A stretch of DNA of 64,000 bases from an uncultured Rikenellaceae bacterium (lineage in GTDB: Bacteria > Bacteroidota > Bacteroidia > Bacteroidales > VadinHA17), in the NCBI GenBank assembly GCA_964514725.1, contig CAZEUL010000018.1:1211-65210 (forward strand), given 5' to 3'. Both the position numbers and the translations under genes were made by a program. Positions 43,781 through 53,598 of the stretch are shown in pieces; position 1 is the first letter of the stretch; each line of letters opens with the position of its first letter. Under the pieces are notes generated by a model. It saw only the letters and a list, made by a program, of their open reading frames with translations. It did no database searches and had not been told where the DNA came from.

Positions 43781-45535
43781 TCAGGTGATATCGAGATTAA
43801 ATGCTTTCCTGAATTCCTTAAGTTGTGGATACTTTGATACAAGGTAGCTGTACTTTTGTTCGTCGGAATAAATTATTTCATTTGATTCAGAAACATCAAC
43901 GACAGTTTCAATATCAAAATCCTTAATGTCAAATTTAACTGAAAGAAAGTTCAAGAGTCTTTGCTTGTAATTTAGAATAAATATATCTTTTTGTGCAGCA
44001 TTGTTAAGATGCAATCTTATTATGTGATCATTTTCTATTTCGGTCCGGATAGATTTGAACATACTTGTAATTCTTGTTCCCTCCCCTTTCAGCTGGTTGG
44101 TAAATTCATTCCAGACCTTTTCGAATGAAGGCAGGTTGAAATCAGGAAATTCAGGAGGATTGGACAATTGATTGGTAACATTTTCTTCCCTGATCGACTT
44201 ATTTGCTACCGTTTGATTGTTTTCATCAGAGATAATATCCTTTATTGAGAAAGATTTTGATGGTTTCGCGGGTCCCTGAGAATTTTTTCCTGATTGTTTC
44301 AGTTCCGGTTTTTCAGTTTTCAGACCACTCGTTTTAGCAGCATCTCTGATGATCTCTGATTTAGAAGGAAGTGGAAAATCGTCAACTTTTACATTTGGAA
44401 TTTTAAGTTCAGGCTTTTTTTTTTCAGATTCTTCAGTCAAATCTTCAACGATACGGCACAGACGCAAAAGAAACAATTCTGTGTGGAGCCGTTGGTTTTT
44501 ACTTGTTTTATAAGATATGTCTGTATTACTTCCCGCTTCAAGTGCTTTAAATAAAAACTCCTCTGAGCATGCTTTAGATTGTTGAAGATATCTTTGCTTT
44601 ATTGACGGTGTAGCTTCAAGAAGCTTCAAAGTAACTTCATCTCTGCTGATAAGCAGATCGCGAAGATGGCTGTTAAGTCCTGTAATAAAATTATGTCCAT
44701 CAAAGCCCTTTTCAAGTATCTCGTTGAAAGTCATCAGAACTGAAGAAACATTTTTTTGGAGGGCGCCCTCAACAATTCTGAAGTAATATTCATAATCAAG
44801 GACATTAAGGTTTTCAATTACATCCTTATAGGTTATTTTCTTTCCGCTTAGGCTTACGATTTGGTCAAAGATTGAAAGTGCATCACGTAGTGCTCCATCA
44901 GCTTTTTGTGCAATAATATGAAGTGCTTCTTCTTCAGCTGTAATCCCCTCATTTTTTGCTACATAAACTAAACGGCCAACTATATCCTCCACTTTGATGC
45001 GATTAAAATCAAAAATCTGGCATCGCGATAAAATTGTAGGAATGATTTTATGCTTTTCTGTTGTAGCCAGTATGAAAATAGCGTGTGAAGGCGGTTCTTC
45101 AAGAGTTTTAAGGAAAGCATTGAAAGCAGAGGAGGAGAGCATATGAACCTCATCAATTATATAAATGCTGTATTTACCGATCTGAGGTGGGATTCTTACC
45201 TGTTCGGTCAGTGTTCTGATATCGTCAACTTTATTGTTGGATGCGGCATCGAGTTCATGGATGTTAAATGATCTTAGTGAATTAAATGACAGGCAGGATT
45301 CACATTTATCACAAGCTTCTGCATTATCACCAAGATTGATGCAATTGATTGTTTTTGCAAAAATCCGTGCACAGGTTGTTTTTCCAACTCCGCGTGGTCC
45401 GCAAAAAAGATATGCCTGTGAAAGATACTTTTTTTTGATTGCACTTTTAAGCGTGTTAGTTATTGAATCCTGTCCGACAACCATGTCAAAAGTTGAGGGC
45501 CTGTATTTTCTTGCCGATACGATGAAGTTTTCCAT
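43781..45535 (-). CDS. dnaX: DNA polymerase III subunit gamma/tau
   Basis: SARKYRP, GPRGVGKTT, zinc Cys cluster, ELDAASN, IIDEVHML, LKTLEEPP and SRCQ motifs. Confidence 0.98.
   Translation of the reverse strand: MENFIVSARKYRPSTFDMVVGQDSITNTLKSAIKKKYLSQAYLFCGPRGVGKTTCARIFAKTINCINLGDNAEACDKCESCLSFNSLRSFNIHELDAASNNKVDDIRTLTEQVRIPPQIGKYSIYIIDEVHMLSSSAFNAFLKTLEEPPSHAIFILATTEKHKIIPTILSRCQIFDFNRIKVEDIVGRLVYVAKNEGITAEEEALHIIAQKADGALRDALSIFDQIVSLSGKKITYKDVIENLNVLDYEYYFRIVEGALQKNVSSVLMTFNEILEKGFDGHNFITGLNSHLRDLLISRDEVTLKLLEATPSIKQRYLQQSKACSEEFLFKALEAGSNTDISYKTSKNQRLHTELFLLRLCRIVEDLTEESEKKKPELKIPNVKVDDFPLPSKSEIIRDAAKTSGLKTEKPELKQSGKNSQGPAKPSKSFSIKDIISDENNQTVANKSIREENVTNQLSNPPEFPDFNLPSFEKVWNEFTNQLKGEGTRITSMFKSIRTEIENDHIIRLHLNNAAQKDIFILNYKQRLLNFLSVKFDIKDFDIETVVDVSESNEIIYSDEQKYSYLVSKYPQLKEFRKAFNLDIT
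44414..44424 (-). other. A10-G slippery run (GAA AAA AAA AAG, codons 371-374 of dnaX)
   Basis: Ten T on the + strand at 44415-44424. Both shifted frames reach a stop quickly. Confidence 0.6.
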
Positions 45536-47008: not shown

Positions 47009-49654
47009 TTAATAAAGGTCATGAAAGTCTTTCCTTCTTTCGTATTTCAGGTCAGCAAGAACCGATGACTTGACCCGGATTGTAAAATTCCACATTTTCA
47101 AAGTGCCGTTTGGGACCCAGTTGAAACTCATTGTCCAGCAATGAAGATCACGGGTTATCCCTATCTGGGTCATAGTTATCTCCTTTCCTCTAAAATCATA
47201 CCCGCTTGTATATGTTACAGCCATCTTTTTGGTAAGGTTCACATTACCTGCGACTGACAAAGTCTGGGTTACCATTGATTTAAATCCGGGCTTCTGGTAA
47301 CTTAAGTTATAACTGACACGAGCAGACCAGGGAACATTAAAAATGGCATAGCCATACTCATCAAACCGGTTATCTGCGGAATTCTGTCCTCCTGGCGGTC
47401 CGGTCTGTGTTAAACCTGTCCTCTGCCCTGCCATTGTCGCCTGCTGCGAACTTTGCCCACTACTCTTCTTGTCTCCTCTGAGAAGTTCTCCGAGGTCAAA
47501 ATCGAGGCTTAAATTAAAACTTGTCAGTCTCATCAGCTTTTTGTTCTGGGAAAAAGCAAAAGTGCCTATTGTCTGCCCTTTATCATTTAAGCCATAAAGT
47601 GAGAAACTACTGTTTGCTGAAACACCAAAATTATTGAAAAGGGTGGTTCTCAAGGCCATAACTACAGGGGACCATTTCATTGAATCAGCGAATATATTAT
47701 ATGAGGTATTAATGCTGAAATTATCAATGATTTTAATCTTTTGAGGTTTACCTGTCGTGTCGTTTTTTGCAAAAACTTTGGCTTCTAATAAGTTTGTGAG
47801 GCCTAATGATATTGAACTGCTGCGTCTTCCCAGAGCCGGAGTTCCAAAAATGTTATCGCCGAATATCGAGTACTCGTTCATATTGCCTATTGTATCCCTT
47901 TGTACCTGCCTGTACATATCACTGCTCAAACCTTTGAAGACAGGAATAAAGTTATAGCTTATAGAAGGCTTCATTACATGTCTTATCGCCTGTATCCTTG
48001 ATTCAGGTCTGAAAGTAAAAGTACCGAAGATCTGCGGATTAAAACTTGCACTTATTGATGGACTTATTGCGTGTCCGTAAAAAAATCCTCTTATTGTATC
48101 GGTTACAATAGTAGGAACTCTCCGGTTAAGTGCAGTGTCAAGATAGTTTGGTACCCAGCGTTTATCATACTTCTGGGTATATAAGACACCCTTATATGAG
48201 ACCTGAGGAGAGATTGAAAAATTCTTGAAAGGACGGATTTGAAGGCTGAGAGGTGCTTCGTGCTTGAATCCGTTCCTCATATTTTTCCATACTCTGTTTG
48301 TAAAGAGCAGGCTGTCATAAGTACTGATCTGATTATCAAGTGAGGCAGAGTACTGGAACTGTAATTCCTGATACCACTTTTTAGCACCGACACTTTTTCC
48401 TTTGAGTGGATAAAGCCGGCTTATATTGAAATTTATTTTCGGCAGATTAAGGCTCACAGTTTTGTTTTTTACATTTTGACTGTGATTCATACTTGCCGAC
48501 AGGTTGAAAGGGGAACCTTCCCATGTCTTTGAATAGCTTATACTTGACTGACGTTGTGTTGTAACGTGTTCTGAGACTGTATAGCTATTGGTTTTATCAA
48601 AACCGCTCGAACTCATATTAACACTTGCAGAAAATCTTGAACCCGGTCTGGCCTTTGCATTCTGGTTATAAGACCAGCTTATCTTATAATTTGTGGCTTT
48701 GCTGTAATCTGATAATCCCCTATGACCTGATACATTATTAGCGTAACTGAAAGAAAACTGACCACTGTATTTATAAAGTTTGTTATAATTAGACTCAGCA
48801 GTAAGCATCCAGGTACCATTTGTATATATATTGCCCTTGATTGCCAGGTCAAAGTAATCACTTACAGCAAAATAATATCCTCCTTCAGTAAGATTATACC
48901 CCCTTTGCTGCTCTTGTCCGATTCTGGGAATCAGGATTCCTGAAGCTGCCCTTTTTTTCTGAACCGGAAAGAAACCGAATGGAATTGCAACCGGCAAAGG
49001 AATACCCTCAAGCACAAGGTTGCCGGGGCCGGAGATGATTTTTTTACCGGGATAAACTTTTGCTTTTGGAAGGTTAATATAAAAATGCGGATGCTCAGCA
49101 TCGCATGTCGAATAAGTACTTCTGGATATGTTGGAAGTACCGTCATCCAGCAGTTTTGTAACAGAACTTCTCAGCAATCCGTCCTGTTGTTTTGTAACTA
49201 TATTGTAAGCAATTGCTTTACGTGTAACAAAATTATAAATAAGTGAATCAGATGCATATTCCTCTGACCCTTCCTTAAAAACAGGACTCCCGTGTACCTT
49301 GCCTGTGGAATCCCTTATTCCTGATGCAAAAACAGTGTTTTTAACCATATCGAAAACAATGGAGTCAGCCTTTATCTCAATATTACCGTATGTAACTACA
49401 GCCTGATTGATAAGTATTGCAGTCTTTTTTATCAGGTCATTTTTTTTTTGTCCTGCTGCAGTGTAATTTACCTGTTTATCTATTGCTGCCGGGGATATTT
49501 TCTTCAGTTTTAAATAAAGCGTATCATTTTTTAGTGTATCCGGCTTTATTATTGCTGAATCATGTACCGGGATAGGCTCCTGAGAATAAAGCAGTGGAAA
49601 ATGGACCATCACGAGGAACACTATAAGTAACCTATTTTCCTTAAAAAAATACAA
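47009..49654 (-). CDS. Putative LPS assembly outer-membrane protein (LptD-like)
   Basis: OstA-like N-terminal region, YSTCDAEHPHF motif, long beta-strand-rich C-terminus ending RDLHCW...FTIRVKSSVLADLKY. TTG at 49654 gives a signal peptide ending YS-Q. Confidence 0.8.
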   Translation of the reverse strand: MYFFKENRLLIVFLVMVHFPLLYSQEPIPVHDSAIIKPDTLKNDTLYLKLKKISPAAIDKQVNYTAAGQKKNDLIKKTAILINQAVVTYGNIEIKADSIVFDMVKNTVFASGIRDSTGKVHGSPVFKEGSEEYASDSLIYNFVTRKAIAYNIVTKQQDGLLRSSVTKLLDDGTSNISRSTYSTCDAEHPHFYINLPKAKVYPGKKIISGPGNLVLEGIPLPVAIPFGFFPVQKKRAASGILIPRIGQEQQRGYNLTEGGYYFAVSDYFDLAIKGNIYTNGTWMLTAESNYNKLYKYSGQFSFSYANNVSGHRGLSDYSKATNYKISWSYNQNAKARPGSRFSASVNMSSSGFDKTNSYTVSEHVTTQRQSSISYSKTWEGSPFNLSASMNHSQNVKNKTVSLNLPKINFNISRLYPLKGKSVGAKKWYQELQFQYSASLDNQISTYDSLLFTNRVWKNMRNGFKHEAPLSLQIRPFKNFSISPQVSYKGVLYTQKYDKRWVPNYLDTALNRRVPTIVTDTIRGFFYGHAISPSISASFNPQIFGTFTFRPESRIQAIRHVMKPSISYNFIPVFKGLSSDMYRQVQRDTIGNMNEYSIFGDNIFGTPALGRRSSSISLGLTNLLEAKVFAKNDTTGKPQKIKIIDNFSINTSYNIFADSMKWSPVVMALRTTLFNNFGVSANSSFSLYGLNDKGQTIGTFAFSQNKKLMRLTSFNLSLDFDLGELLRGDKKSSGQSSQQATMAGQRTGLTQTGPPGGQNSADNRFDEYGYAIFNVPWSARVSYNLSYQKPGFKSMVTQTLSVAGNVNLTKKMAVTYTSGYDFRGKEITMTQIGITRDLHCWTMSFNWVPNGTLKMWNFTIRVKSSVLADLKYERRKDFHDLY

Positions 49655-49663
49655 CTTAAATAC

Positions 49664-49671
49664 TATTTTTG
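49664..49671 (+). promoter_or_regulatory. -7 box (TATTTTTG) for amidase-mlaD
   Basis: Exact TAnnTTTG. Confidence 0.5.
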
Positions 49672-49704
49672 TATAGTTTTTGTGTGACGTCGGGATGTCA
49701 GGCG

Positions 49705-49712
49705 CAAAACTA
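49705..49712 (-). promoter_or_regulatory. -7 box (TAGTTTTG) for the lptD-like gene
   Basis: CAAAACTA on the + strand. Confidence 0.5.
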
Positions 49713-49733
49713 ATTAAAAAACATGAACACAAT

Positions 49734-50891
49734 ATGGATACCGATATTAAAAACGGCAAACACCATACCATTTATTTTGACACACTAAAACTGATAATAC
49801 CATTTCTATTTGTAATTATATCTGGACTGACTTATATTGAGGGTCAGGAAAAAACATGGTTAATAGTCATAGACCCTGGTCATGGAGGAAAAGATCCCGG
49901 AGCACTTGGGTCGTTTGCCAAAGAAAAGGACATTAATCTTGCAATAGCTCTCAAAGCAGGTGAATATCTTGAAAAAAATCTCGGTAATGTAAAAATACTT
50001 TTCACAAGGAAAAGTGATGTTTTTGTTGGATTGAATGACAGGGCGGATTTTGCAAATAAAAACAAGGCTGATATTTTTATTTCAGTCCATACCAATTCGA
50101 TACCAAAAAAGACAATTAAAGGGACTGAAACCTGGATCATGGGACCTGCGAAAGATGAAGCGAATCTTATGGTGGCGATGAAAGAAAATGAGGTAATCAG
50201 ATGGGAGGATGATTTCACTACCAAATATGAGGGATTTGATCCTAAATCCCCTGAGTCATATATAATGTTCACGGTAATGCAGAATATATTTCAGGAACAA
50301 AGCACATTGCTTGCTTCAAATATCCAGAATCAGTTCAAAAATCAAGCCGGAAGAAATGATCTGGGAGTCAAACAGGCTGGTTTTCTTGTTTTATATATGA
50401 CGACAATGCCCAGTGTGCTTATCGAGACCGGATTCCTCACAAATCCGGAAGAAGAAAAATATCTTACATCAGAAACCGGCCAGGATTATCTGGCATCAGC
50501 AATAAACAGAGCAGTGCTTACATATATTCATGAGATAGAAAAAAAGAGTCTTATATCCCAGGCATCAAAGAATCTGAATTCCCAGAAAACTGACTCAACA
50601 AGCAAAAAAGATGTTGATACATCAGCTGTTGTTCTGTTTCAGGTTCAGATTGCCTCTTCTACCAAAAGACTTGAAATGAAGCCTGAAAACTTCAGAGGGT
50701 TAACTGATCTTAGGGAAATACAAGCAGATAACAGGTTTAAATATACGACGGGCAGTTTTTTAGATTATTCAGAAGCGGTTACACATTGGAAAAAGATCAG
50801 GAAAACCGTACCCGATGCATTTATTATTGCAGTCCATAACAATATAATTCTACCTTTGGAAGAAGCAAAGGCTCTTACAAAGAACAAATAA
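49734..50891 (+). CDS. N-acetylmuramoyl-L-alanine amidase (Amidase_3) with SPOR-like C-terminus
   Basis: IDPGHGGKDPG, EKDINL, ISVHTN and VLIETGFLTN motifs. Start position uncertain. Confidence 0.93.
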   Translation: MDTDIKNGKHHTIYFDTLKLIIPFLFVIISGLTYIEGQEKTWLIVIDPGHGGKDPGALGSFAKEKDINLAIALKAGEYLEKNLGNVKILFTRKSDVFVGLNDRADFANKNKADIFISVHTNSIPKKTIKGTETWIMGPAKDEANLMVAMKENEVIRWEDDFTTKYEGFDPKSPESYIMFTVMQNIFQEQSTLLASNIQNQFKNQAGRNDLGVKQAGFLVLYMTTMPSVLIETGFLTNPEEEKYLTSETGQDYLASAINRAVLTYIHEIEKKSLISQASKNLNSQKTDSTSKKDVDTSAVVLFQVQIASSTKRLEMKPENFRGLTDLREIQADNRFKYTTGSFLDYSEAVTHWKKIRKTVPDAFIIAVHNNIILPLEEAKALTKNK

Positions 50892-50897
50892 ATACAA

Positions 50898-51824
50898 ATG
50901 ATGAAAAAAATCTCAAATGAAGTAAAAGTTGGTGCAACAGCATTGCTAACTATTCTTGTTTTTATATGGCTATACAGTTTTTTAAAAGGGAGAGAGGTTT
51001 TCAGTAGCAAAGCCCACTATTATGTCATATATGATAAAGTTGGCGGGTTAGCAGAATCCAGTCCTGTTGAGATCAATGGCTATAAAGTTGGTGTTGTCCA
51101 GTCCATCAGGTTTGTTGATCCCGAAAGTGGTAAACTTCTTGTGGTACTATCGGTGGATAAAGGATTCAGGTTGCCAAAAAACACTGTTGCAGAAATTACC
51201 ACAGCCACACTTATTGCAGGTATGAAAGTACAGTTCGTTTTTGGTAATGGCCCCGGAACTTACTCAAACGGTGATACAATTCCAGGAAGACTTGCAACAT
51301 CTCTTATAACAAAACTTGAAGAAGAACTAATACCTCTTAAAAACAAGGTGGAAAGCGTTATTGTCAAATTGGATTCCACTATCGGGTCGGTCAATGAAAT
51401 ACTGAATCCTGAGTTCCGATCCAATATCAATTCAGGAATGGAAAGCCTTAGTAAGACTGTAAAAGGAATTGAGAAAGCTGATATAGGAGCTTCGCTTAAT
51501 AATATTAAAAGACTCACCGGAGTTTTGGCCGAGAATACGGAAAATATTAAAAACACTTTCCAAAACCTGGAAGCTTTTACAGACACTCTGGCTGCAGCAG
51601 ATCTTTACACATCTGTCGGCAGTCTTAAAAGCAGCCTCGAGAGGCTGACATTGCTTCTGGATAATATAAATAATGGTAAAGGTACGGCCGGGCAGTTGTT
51701 TACAAATGATTCAATTTATAAAAATCTCAATAATAGTCTGGCAAATCTGGATAACCTCCTGCAGGATCTTAAGGCAAATCCAAAAAGATATGTACATTTT
51801 TCAATGTTCGGCAGAAAGAACTGA
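50898..51824 (+). CDS. MlaD/MCE family protein
   Basis: EVKVG-TM, GGLAESSPVEINGYKVGVV, coiled coil, NPKRYVHFSMFG terminus. Confidence 0.92.
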   Translation: MMKKISNEVKVGATALLTILVFIWLYSFLKGREVFSSKAHYYVIYDKVGGLAESSPVEINGYKVGVVQSIRFVDPESGKLLVVLSVDKGFRLPKNTVAEITTATLIAGMKVQFVFGNGPGTYSNGDTIPGRLATSLITKLEEELIPLKNKVESVIVKLDSTIGSVNEILNPEFRSNINSGMESLSKTVKGIEKADIGASLNNIKRLTGVLAENTENIKNTFQNLEAFTDTLAAADLYTSVGSLKSSLERLTLLLDNINNGKGTAGQLFTNDSIYKNLNNSLANLDNLLQDLKANPKRYVHFSMFGRKN

Positions 51825-52167
51825 CAAGAATAAAAGTATTTTTGTAAAATTCAGACTAACTTGATCTTATTATCAGATATCTGATCGATGGCAAAATAAT
51901 ACTAGTTTCTTCTTATTTATGCTGGTTTTTGCCCATCAGAAGCTAATAAATTGTAAAACACACACAAAGGGAGAATATATATATTATCTTATTGATATTC
52001 AATAATTTAAAAGGTGAAAAAAATTTTTTTCCATAAGTAACTGATGATTAAATCCATATACTTTTTTTGAAAAAATCAAGCAAAAAAAATTTTTTTTTTA
52101 ACCTTTTTTTTTACAAATATTGCTTTCTGATTTTCCTGTTTTGGAACCATAAAACGAACTAACTTTT

Positions 52168-53598
52168 ATGAATAAATCGCATATTGATGTTTGGAATAAT
52201 TGTCTGCAAATAATAAAGGATATTATTCCTTCTGTCAGTTTTAAAACGTGGTTTGAACCTATAATTCCGTTAAAACTTGAAAACAATATTCTGACTATTC
52301 AGGTTCCAAGTCCTTTTTTCTATGAATATCTTGAAGAACAATATATTGACATTCTAAGGAAGACTCTCAGACGTGAAATTGGTGCAGATGCCAAACTGGA
52401 ATACAACGTAGTTCTTGAAAATGCAAATTATTCTGATGGAAAGCCTTATACAGTAAGATATCCTTCCCGTAACAAAACCGATCTTAATAACAAGCCAGTA
52501 CAGGTACCTTTCGATGTAACGCAGCCCTCAATAAGGAATCCCTTTGTGATCCCTGGGATTAAGAAAGTTCATTTTGATCCCAGGTTGAATCCCGATTATA
52601 ATTTCAATAATTTTGTAGAGGGTGAATGCAACAGGCTTGCCAGATCTGCTGGAATTGCTGTGGGTAATAACCCTGGGGGGACTGCATTTAATCCGCTGAT
52701 GATTTATGGTGATTCCGGACTGGGAAAGACTCATCTTGCTCAGGCCATAGGAATCCTTGTCAAAGAAAAACATCCGGATAAGGTTGTTCTTTATGTAAAT
52801 GCCAATAAGTTCCAGACGCAGTTTGTCGAATCCGTAAGGAACAACAATAAGAACGACTTTCTTCATTTCTATCAGATGATAGATGTGCTTATTCTCGATG
52901 ATGTCCACGAGTTTGCGGGTAAAGAAAAAACCCAGGACACATTTTTCCATATTTTCAATCATATTCACCAATCAGGCAAGCAACTGATCCTTACTTGTGA
53001 CCGTCCTCCTGTGGAGCTCCAGGGTATGGAACAGAGGCTGCTTTCAAGGTTTAAATGGGGTCTTCAGGCTGATCTCCAGAGACCAGATTATGAAACAAGG
53101 CTGGCTATCCTTAAAAAGAAAGCCTATAATGACGGTATCGAACTGCCAGAGGAGATCTTTGAATACCTTGCTGCTAATATCTCTAATAATATAAGGGAAC
53201 TTGAGGCTGTACTAATATCCCTTTATGCCCAATCCACCCTTAACAGGAAAGAGATAACCCTTGACCTTGCAAGACAGATGGTTGAAAAACTTGTAAGTAC
53301 CTCTCGTCGTGAAATAACAATTGAATACATACAGAAAATAGTTTGTGATTATTATAAGATACCGATAGAGCTTATTCAGGGAAAGACAAGAAAAAGGGAA
53401 ATTGTACAGGCAAGACAGGTATCAATGTATTTCTCAAAGAGTCTTACAAAGGCCTCACTGGCAAGTATAGGATCTCGCATAGGCGGGAAGGATCATGCAA
53501 CAGTGTTACACGCTTGTAAAACAGTTAATAATCTGATCGACACCGACAAACATTTCAGAAACCAGATAAACGAAATAGAAAAGAAATTAAAAGTGTAA
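52168..53598 (+). CDS. dnaA: Chromosomal replication initiator DnaA
   Basis: NPLMIYGDSGLGKTHL, LILDDVH, RLLSRFKWGL, NIRELE and GGKDHATVLHA motifs. Confidence 0.98.
   Translation: MNKSHIDVWNNCLQIIKDIIPSVSFKTWFEPIIPLKLENNILTIQVPSPFFYEYLEEQYIDILRKTLRREIGADAKLEYNVVLENANYSDGKPYTVRYPSRNKTDLNNKPVQVPFDVTQPSIRNPFVIPGIKKVHFDPRLNPDYNFNNFVEGECNRLARSAGIAVGNNPGGTAFNPLMIYGDSGLGKTHLAQAIGILVKEKHPDKVVLYVNANKFQTQFVESVRNNNKNDFLHFYQMIDVLILDDVHEFAGKEKTQDTFFHIFNHIHQSGKQLILTCDRPPVELQGMEQRLLSRFKWGLQADLQRPDYETRLAILKKKAYNDGIELPEEIFEYLAANISNNIRELEAVLISLYAQSTLNRKEITLDLARQMVEKLVSTSRREITIEYIQKIVCDYYKIPIELIQGKTRKREIVQARQVSMYFSKSLTKASLASIGSRIGGKDHATVLHACKTVNNLIDTDKHFRNQINEIEKKLKV

What the first reader, a model, noticed from the sequence alone, without database searches (positions are those of the whole stretch)
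44380..44430. dnaX A10 slippery site predicts gamma/tau recoding
Seen (minus strand): GAA AAA AAA AAG CCT GAA at codons 371-376, just after the clamp-loader core. The -1 frame reads AAA GCC TGA (one new residue, then stop). The +1 frame reads AGC CTG AAC TTA AAA TTC CAA ATG TAA. Established: E. coli makes gamma by -1 frameshift at A AAA AAG with one extra residue then UGA, and Thermus thermophilus does so by transcriptional slippage on a poly-A run. Inference: a gamma of about 375 aa plus the 584-aa tau from one gene. No strong stimulatory hairpin or SD was seen, which favours transcriptional slippage.
Basis: partly seen in the sequence, partly recalled or inferred. Interest (0 to 1): 0.65.

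Follow-up and report, generated by a model that had tools for sequence, protein, structure and literature searches.

The report
Conserved poly-A slippage site in dnaX
A run of ten A's in the DNA-replication gene dnaX of this uncultured Bacteroidales bacterium is a deeply conserved slip site that most likely lets one gene make both the long (tau) and the short (gamma) clamp-loader protein, a trick already shown in Thermus and already predicted for Bacteroidetes.

Summary
dnaX (window 43781-45535, minus strand, 584 aa) carries an A10 run at 44415-44424 (codons 371-374), just after clamp-loader domain III. One extra A gives GCC TGA and a 375-aa product ending EKKKA. One A fewer gives a 381-aa product.

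The run alone is not rare in this AT-rich DNA, but its conservation is decisive. All 22 same-genus genomes keep A9-A11 at this place, as an island of 100% identity in a variable linker. So do 63 of 73 evenly sampled Bacteroidia genomes, in all three codon phases and before any next base. A control A10 in the neighbouring lptD gene is conserved in no congener.

In 27 of those 63 genomes, and in three congeners, the genomic frame ends after the run and essential tau needs one extra A. Slipping must therefore be efficient.

There is no downstream hairpin and no SD-like element, and tRNA-Lys(CUU) is present. Together with the conserved length of at least 9, this favours Thermus-type transcriptional slippage over E. 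coli-type ribosomal frameshifting.

The kind is known (Larsen 2000; Antonov 2013), so this is a new member and of modest interest.

The parts
43781..45535 (-). dnaX ORF. The zero frame gives 584-aa tau.
   Evidence: ORF list. NCBIfam PRK14971 766 bits and TIGR02397 430 bits. Pfam DNA_pol3_delta2, DNAX_ATPase_lid and DNA_pol3_gamma3.
44425..45535 (-). Part shared by tau and predicted gamma: clamp-loader domains I-III, residues 1-370.
   Evidence: The Pfam domains end at residue 368. This part is 66-83% identical among congeners.
44415..44424 (-). A10 slippery run (T10 in the template strand), within codons 371-374 GAA AAA AAA AAG.
   Evidence: Conserved as A9-A11 in 22 of 22 congeners. All 10 columns are 100% identical, against 0.56-0.60 in the flanks, across the 16 congeners in register. 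A9-A11 is present in 63 of 73 sampled Bacteroidia.
44409..44414 (-). GCC TGA: one sense codon and a stop, read after one extra A or a -1 shift. This ends the predicted 375-aa gamma (...EKKKA).
   Evidence: In 17 of the 19 congeners with tau in frame, the stop lies exactly one codon after the run.
44389..44391 (-). TAA stop of the other shifted frame (one A fewer or two extra). It gives 381- or 382-aa products ending SLNLKFQM.
43781..44414 (-). Tau-only C-terminal part (residues 375-584): a variable linker plus a conserved C-terminal module.
   Evidence: No Pfam-A match in my scan. The precomputed Pfam list for this protein names DUF8439. Residues about 463-584 align across Bacteroidota dnaX by tblastn.

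Best explanation
The A10 run is a programmed transcriptional slippage site of the Thermus thermophilus dnaX type.

Mechanism (inferred). While RNA polymerase copies the T10 template, the RNA-DNA hybrid of about 9 bp is entirely rA:dT, so the nascent RNA can realign by one base. The polymerase then adds, or more rarely omits, an A. The gene therefore yields a mixture of mRNAs:
- A10 or A13 gives tau (584 or 585 aa).
- A11 gives gamma (375 aa, domains I-III, ending EKKKA).
- A9 or A12 gives a 381- or 382-aa gamma-like form.
Each mRNA is translated normally. Gamma lacks the C-terminal part that ties the clamp loader to the polymerase and helicase.

Shown here: the run, the stops in both shifted frames, the deep nucleotide-level conservation, the mirror layouts in relatives, and the absence of ribosomal frameshift stimulators.

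Inferred: the slippage itself, its efficiency (probably tens of per cent, because relatives depend on it for essential tau), and the existence and role of gamma.
For: 1. The run sits exactly at the end of domain III.

2. All 22 congeners keep A9-A11 at the same nucleotide. In the 16 congeners in register, the ten columns are invariant while flanking columns average 0.56-0.60 and the flanking residues vary.

3. In an even sample of 73 genomes of class Bacteroidia at least 90% complete, 63 have A9-A11 there (46 are A10). The phases are 32/17/14 and the next base is G/T/C 28/18/17. GC-rich genes of 58-63% G+C keep it too. This rules out protein-level conservation of a KKK motif, because AAG makes up 27% of Lys codons elsewhere in these genes.

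4. Both short frames stop within 5 codons in 87% of cases. The background for one frame is 0.34, so about 0.12 would be expected for both.

5. Layouts flip. Of the 63, 35 have tau in frame, 27 need one extra A and 1 needs one A fewer. Within this genus, three non-sister genomes need one extra A. In one other genus (g26), A10 two-ORF genes and an A11 one-ORF gene coexist. Since tau is essential, slipping must be efficient.

6. The conserved length is 9-11, not the 7 that a ribosomal heptamer needs.

7. There is no downstream structure and no SD-like element. The genome has tRNA-Lys(CUU) as well as UUU.

8. A second gene of the same genome, coaBC, is split at an A11 run. That run is kept as A10-A11 in 20 of 21 congeners, again with all three layouts.

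9. The control A10 in lptD is not conserved.

10. Literature: T. thermophilus uses A9 followed by GCCTGA, and A10 runs were reported in Flavobacterium, Cytophaga, Capnocytophaga and Chlorobi dnaX (PMC3711429). The review PMC5009743 describes both.
Against: - There is no direct evidence. No RNA reads, cDNA heterogeneity or protein data could be examined.
- Exact look-up of the three predicted short products in a collection of about 15 billion proteins found none. That test is weak for a rarely sampled organism.
- In this genus the run is phased as A_AAA_AAG in most members, the E. coli shift heptamer, with the -1 stop one codon later. A ribosomal contribution therefore cannot be excluded.
- An A10 run contains an in-frame A_AAA_AAA-type heptamer in any phase, so phase independence alone does not exclude ribosomal slippage.
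- The three frame-flipped congeners are metagenome-assembled genomes, and homopolymer assembly errors cannot be ruled out for them individually.
Confidence: 0.7

Rival explanations
1. E. coli-type -1 programmed ribosomal frameshifting. The mRNA is uniform, and ribosomes slip back one base on A_AAA_AAG (or A_AAA_AAA), read GCC and stop at UGA, which gives gamma.
For: The zero-frame phasing GA-A AAA AAG puts the E. coli heptamer in register, with a -1 stop one codon later. This phasing and a following G are kept in 17 of 22 congeners. The strong bias towards layouts needing one extra A, which equals a -1 shift (27 against 1), fits a -1 shift as well as insertion-biased RNA polymerase slippage.
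Against: - No downstream stem-loop: -5.1 kcal/mol, z = +1.8.
- No SD-like element upstream.
- A cognate tRNA-Lys(CUU) is present. From my own knowledge of Tsuchihashi and Brown 1992, its absence is what makes AAG shifty in E. coli.
- The conserved feature across the class is a run of 9-11 A in any phase and before any base, longer than a heptamer requires.
- Four relatives (L050, L065, L093, L183) need the opposite shift.
Confidence: 0.15
2. No recoding. The run is a neutral or protein-level feature (a Lys-rich linker in AT-rich DNA), and only tau is made. Any gamma would come from proteolysis, as in Caulobacter.
For: Runs of nine or more A are not over-represented in the window. Another A10 lies in lptD. 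AAA is the preferred Lys codon at 73%. No shifted product was found in the protein collection.
Against: - The run is invariant while the flanking linker varies.
- It is kept in all three phases and in GC-rich genes.
- The lptD run is not conserved.
- Stops are strongly enriched in both shifted frames.
- Dozens of relatives cannot make tau without a shift at this run (PMC3711429).
Confidence: 0.05
3. DNA-level phase variation. Replication slippage changes the run length in the population and switches cells between tau-encoding and gamma-encoding alleles.
For: Run length and layout do differ between related species: A9, A10 and A11, with three flips in the genus.
Against: - From general knowledge, dnaX tau is essential, so an off state would be lethal without expression-level slippage.
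- Independent assemblies from at least six runs all show A10.
- The flips are fixed differences between species, not within-sample variants seen here.
Confidence: 0.03

Closest known systems
Thermus thermophilus dnaX programmed transcriptional slippage (Larsen, Wills, Nelson, Atkins, Gesteland 2000; summarised in PMC5009743; sequence in PMC3711429 Fig. S3)
   Same: - Tau is encoded by a single ORF.
- A homopolymeric A run lies at the gamma/tau boundary.
- Stops lie close by in both shifted frames.
- No ribosomal stimulators are needed.
- Even the six bases after the run are the same, GCCTGA.
   Different: - The run is A10 here and A9 in Thermus.
- The phylum differs, and the gene is AT-rich rather than very GC-rich.
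- Slippage was shown experimentally in Thermus and is only inferred here.
Two-ORF dnaX genes in which tau requires recoding at a poly-A run (GeneTack dnaX cluster: Flavobacterium johnsoniae, F. psychrophilum, Cytophaga hutchinsonii, Capnocytophaga ochracea, Chlorobi, Coraliomargarita; Antonov et al. 2013, PMC3711429)
   Same: - The same A10 run at the same place in the same phylum.
- The same inferred mechanism.
- Three congeners of this genome, and 27 of 63 sampled Bacteroidia with the run, have this layout.
   Different: In this window the polarity is the other way round: tau is the zero-frame product and gamma is the slip product. A screen for frame breaks in DNA, such as GeneTack, cannot see such genes.
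Escherichia coli dnaX -1 programmed ribosomal frameshift (A_AAA_AAG, SD-like element, 3' stem-loop)
   Same: - The same gene and the same boundary.
- The heptamer A_AAA_AAG is in register.
- One extra codon and then UGA.
- The outcome is gamma plus tau.
   Different: - No SD-like element and no stem-loop.
- tRNA-Lys(CUU) is present.
- The run extends to 10 A and is conserved as a run rather than as a heptamer.

Membership tests
Thermus-type dnaX transcriptional slippage site | Homopolymeric A run of about 9 or more in the sense strand at the domain III / tau-specific boundary of dnaX | tested here: met
   A10 at nt 1112-1121. Pfam domain III ends at residue 368.
Thermus-type dnaX transcriptional slippage site | Tau in a single ORF, with nearby stops in both non-zero frames | tested here: met
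   The zero frame gives 584 aa, one extra A gives 375 aa and one A fewer gives 381 aa.
Thermus-type dnaX transcriptional slippage site | The run is conserved at nucleotide level among relatives, independently of codon phase | tested here: met
   22 of 22 congeners and 63 of 73 Bacteroidia. Phases 32/17/14.
Thermus-type dnaX transcriptional slippage site | mRNA population heterogeneous in run length while the DNA is uniform | not testable with these tools
On the DNA side only, A10 is identical in independent assemblies.
Thermus-type dnaX transcriptional slippage site | Two protein products, tau and gamma, in comparable amounts | not testable with these tools
   No proteomic data were available. 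Exact look-up of the predicted short forms found nothing.
E. coli-type dnaX -1 programmed ribosomal frameshift | X_XXY_YYZ heptamer (A_AAA_AAG) in the zero-frame register, with a -1 stop soon after | tested here: met
   GA-A AAA AAG then GCC TGA in the -1 frame.
E. coli-type dnaX -1 programmed ribosomal frameshift | SD-like stimulator about 10 nt upstream | tested here: not met
   The upstream 25 nt, gttgaagatttgactgaagaatctg, have no GGAG/AGGA/GAGG.
E. coli-type dnaX -1 programmed ribosomal frameshift | Stable stem-loop a few nt downstream | tested here: not met
   The 80 nt downstream fold to -5.1 kcal/mol, z = +1.81, and 198 of 200 shuffles fold at least as well.
E. coli-type dnaX -1 programmed ribosomal frameshift | AAG read only by tRNA-Lys(UUU), with no tRNA-Lys(CUU) | tested here: not met
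   ARAGORN on the whole genome finds both tRNA-Lys(ttt) and tRNA-Lys(ctt). The genome is 97% complete.
Two-ORF dnaX (tau needs recoding; Antonov 2013) | The zero frame terminates just after the run, and the tau C-terminus lies in another frame | tested here: not met
   In this window tau is in the zero frame. The layout is met in congeners G001, G005 and G006 and in 27 of 63 sampled Bacteroidia.

The most novel reading that the evidence does not exclude
In this Bacteroidales lineage, RNA-polymerase slippage on A10-A11 runs may be efficient enough (tens of per cent) to serve as a general, heritable tuning device rather than a dnaX curiosity.

One-base indels in the run would flip which product is the default without loss of viability. 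I saw three independent flips of dnaX within the genus. The essential gene coaBC is split in the same way in most of the genus, and all three layouts occur.

Run length would then set the tau:gamma ratio and the CoaC:CoaBC ratio, and it would evolve as a rheostat.
Probability: 0.3. Interest if true: 0.45.

Novelty: new member of a known kind. Interest (0 to 1): 0.2.

Why it matters
For annotation: this dnaX should carry a note that it yields two products. In the many relatives where the gene looks broken at the run, it should not be called a pseudogene or two genes.

For biology: the survey shows that the poly-A device is the rule in class Bacteroidia (63 of 73 sampled genomes), in both polarities. 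It has been lost or replaced in some gut families. This extends the handful of Bacteroidetes cases listed in 2013, which were only the ones visible as frame breaks.

It adds no new mechanism. The value is as a well-supported example and as a pointer to lineages (this genus, Flavobacterium) where slippage efficiency could be measured.

Tried and rejected
- Exact look-up of the three predicted short products (375, 381 and 382 aa) in the 15-billion-protein collection: none present, only the 584-aa tau. This is uninformative for a rarely sampled organism.
- Downstream stimulatory structure: none found.
- Whether the three frame-flipped congeners form one clade, which would argue for a single inherited change: they do not. 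The tree needs three changes, so individual assembly errors cannot be excluded for them. The layout itself is well attested in complete genomes (PMC3711429).
- A shared GGGGCGTAGC string in Bacteroidaceae-like dnaX genes that lack the run (L049, L062, L073): it lies in a conserved G-R-S-P...PIF peptide and is most simply a protein motif. I dropped it.
- Consensus folding of the context after the in-frame UAG of the side lineage: RNAalifold on a MAFFT alignment found no pairs. The short GC hairpin I saw by eye is therefore unconfirmed.
- The genome search with 'of' set to a locus id failed. I redid it through a genome handle.

Full report
**What is there**

On the minus strand, window 43781-45535 is a 584-aa ORF. 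It is dnaX: NCBIfam PRK14971 at 766 bits against a cut-off of 685, and TIGR02397 at 430 bits. Pfam finds DNA_pol3_delta2, the ATPase lid and domain III (DNA_pol3_gamma3, residues 238-368).

Codons 371-376 read GAA AAA AAA AAG CCT GAA. The A10 run is at 44415-44424. One extra A, or a -1 shift, gives GCC TGA and a 375-aa product ending EKKKA. One A fewer gives AGC CTG AAC TTA AAA TTC CAA ATG TAA and 381 aa.

The same A10 appears in independent Logan assemblies from at least six sequencing runs, so it is not an assembly artefact.

**Is it more than chance?**

Taken alone, no. Matches to A9 are no more frequent in the window than in shuffles (7 against 10.6).

In the whole 4.2-Mb genome (39.6% G+C) there are only 17 A/T runs of 10 or more. 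Run counts fall faster than composition predicts: A7 1069, A8 299, A9 46, A10 4, A11 1. Only five of the 17 lie well inside long open frames, and all five are poly-A in the sense strand.

The decisive evidence is conservation. All 22 same-genus genomes with a dnaX locus carry A9-A11 at the same nucleotide. In the 16 congeners in register, the ten columns are 100% identical, while the flanking 45 columns average 0.56-0.60 for the commonest base and the flanking residues vary freely.

It is A10 in none of 22 congeners and A9 in one.

**How far does it reach?**

I took an even sample of genomes of the phylum that are at least 90% complete and fetched dnaX from all 73 genomes of the same class (Bacteroidia) that had a match.

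- 63 have A9-A11 at the end of domain III: 46 A10, 9 A11 and 8 A9.
- The run occurs in codon phases 1/2/0 as 32/17/14.
- The next base is G/T/C in 28/18/17.
- It is present even in genes of 58-63% G+C.

Because the phase varies, the peptide varies, so this is conservation of DNA or RNA and not of a KKK motif. AAG makes up 27% of Lys codons elsewhere in these genes.

Both short frames stop within five codons of the run in 87% of genes. The background for one off-frame is 34%, so about 12% would be expected for both.

An independent sample from named records agrees: 59 of 78 loci have the run, across Flavobacteriales, Sphingobacteriales, Cytophagales, Chitinophagales and Bacteroidales. Seven of 20 sampled genomes of other classes of the phylum also have A9 or A10 in the scanned stretch after domain III.

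The run is absent from ten of the 73. Four of these belong to the window's own order, and named loci without it include Bacteroidaceae- and Muribaculaceae-like genomes.

**Mirror layouts**

Among the 63 genomes with the run:
- 35 have tau in the zero frame, as here.
- 27 have a zero frame that ends a few codons after the run and reach the tau C-terminus only with one extra A.
- 1 needs one A fewer.

Three more loci of the "one A fewer" type are in the named sample: L050, L065 and L093.

Within one other genus (g26), A10 two-ORF genes and an A11 one-ORF gene coexist. Within the window's own genus, three genomes (G001, G005, G006) need one extra A, and they are not sister taxa.

From general knowledge, tau is essential. 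These genomes therefore depend on slipping at this run, so the slip must be frequent. By the same token, a genome with tau in frame must produce a good deal of gamma. [quoted passage not shown]

**Which mechanism?**

Against an E. coli-type ribosomal frameshift:
- The 80 nt after the run have no structure: -5.1 kcal/mol, z = +1.8.
- There is no SD-like element upstream.
- The genome has tRNA-Lys(CUU) besides tRNA-Lys(UUU).
- What is conserved is a run of 9-11 A, not a heptamer in register.
- A few relatives need the opposite shift.

A length of at least 9 matches the RNA-DNA hybrid of RNA polymerase (established knowledge). It also matches T. thermophilus, whose site is A9 followed by the same GCCTGA.

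The bias towards layouts that need one extra A fits the insertion bias reported for Thermus, where mRNAs carry extra bases.

A ribosomal contribution cannot be excluded. In this genus the run is phased as A_AAA_AAG, and any A10 contains an in-frame A_AAA_AAA-type heptamer.

I put transcriptional slippage as the main mechanism at 0.7, ribosomal frameshifting as the main mechanism at 0.15, and no recoding at 0.05.

**Independent support from the same genome**

Outside the window, the coaBC gene (contig C2:176397-176407) is split at an A11 run. The CoaB half is in the -1 frame and has no start codon of its own before the conserved LLINAGPT. One extra A gives a 404-aa fusion.

Twenty of 21 congeners keep A10-A11 there: 5 fused in frame, 10 needing one extra A and 3 needing one A fewer. 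An essential gene that depends on such a run in most of the genus argues that slippage on A10-A11 is efficient in these bacteria.

**What is known**

Transcriptional slippage in T. thermophilus dnaX is experimentally established (Larsen et al. 2000, as described in PMC5009743 and PMC3711429).

Antonov et al. 2013 (PMC3711429) described the two-ORF type and listed A10 runs in Flavobacterium johnsoniae, F. psychrophilum, Cytophaga hutchinsonii, Capnocytophaga ochracea, several Chlorobi and Coraliomargarita. Their screen detects frame breaks in DNA, so one-ORF genes like this one were not reported.

My literature searches found no later paper on Bacteroidota dnaX recoding. Earlier notes of this scan report the same thing in many genomes. 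They agree with this report but are not independent evidence.

**Verdict**

This is a new member (an uncultured Bacteroidales genus, one-ORF polarity) of a known kind.

That proof would be run-length heterogeneity in RNA against DNA, or detection of the ...EESEKKKA peptide.

Noticed in passing
own genome, contig C2:176397-176407 (outside the window); loci L258-L287: coaBC (dfp) is split at an A11 run between the CoaC and CoaB halves. The zero frame ends at 185 aa. The CoaB half is in the -1 frame and has no ATG, GTG or TTG before the conserved LLINAGPT. One extra A gives a 404-aa fusion.

Twenty of 21 congeners keep A10-A11 there: 5 in frame, 10 need one extra A, 3 need one A fewer, and 2 are unclear. 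This looks like a second programmed slippage site. Antonov 2013 does not mention it. An earlier scan note (e1-5126620) reports the same in uncultured Bacteroidales.
   Followed up: partly
L089 (CAMZFW010000113.1), L109 (CADAWR010000007.1), L228-L255 (relatives of genome handle G341): A lineage of uncultured gut or rumen Bacteroidales has no poly-A run in dnaX. Instead it has an in-frame TAG at codon 363-389 (end of domain III), followed in the same frame by about 190-230 codons (406 in L246) that, in the two genes read to the end (L089, L109), run to the conserved tau C-terminus.

Of the 30 best-matching relatives, 28 have this layout. The other two (L256, L257) also have a TAG there, but a second stop follows 24-30 codons later. 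The context TAG AT(T/A) GCA AG(A/G) is conserved.

By eye a short GC hairpin follows, with what look like compensatory changes, but RNAalifold found no consensus pairs. This is a candidate for programmed UAG readthrough making tau. An earlier scan note (e1-4072861) reached the same reading.
   Followed up: partly
window 49440-49449 (-), in the LptD_2 gene 47009-49771 (-): A second in-gene A10 (CAA AAA AAA AAT GAC CTG ATA), also with stops close by in both shifted frames. It is not conserved: none of 22 congeners has A10 and one has A9. It serves as a negative control. If slippage is efficient, a fraction of LptD transcripts would be truncated at about residue 110.
   Followed up: yes
window 52090-52112 (-): An A10 and a neighbouring A9 lie between the ORF ending at 51824 and the ORF starting at 52168, within aaaaaaaaaggttaaaaaaaaaattttttttg. 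They were not examined further. The window holds 3 of the genome's 17 A/T runs of 10 or more.
   Followed up: no
L050 (Paludibacter-like), L065, L093, L183 (G230): Rare dnaX layout in which tau is reached only with one A fewer (or two extra), the opposite direction to the common two-ORF type.
   Followed up: partly
L019 (G003), L086: - In G003, dnaX has the run (A9, tau in frame) but a further frame break between residues 438 and 463, so the zero frame ends at 464 aa.
- L086 has in-frame stops after residue 383 and no run.
Each is either an assembly error or decay. I did not resolve which.
   Followed up: no
own genome, C13:58052-58061 and C24:15858-15867: Two further A10 runs lie deep inside long open frames (993 and 1314 nt), poly-A in the sense strand. 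Their conservation was not checked.
   Followed up: no
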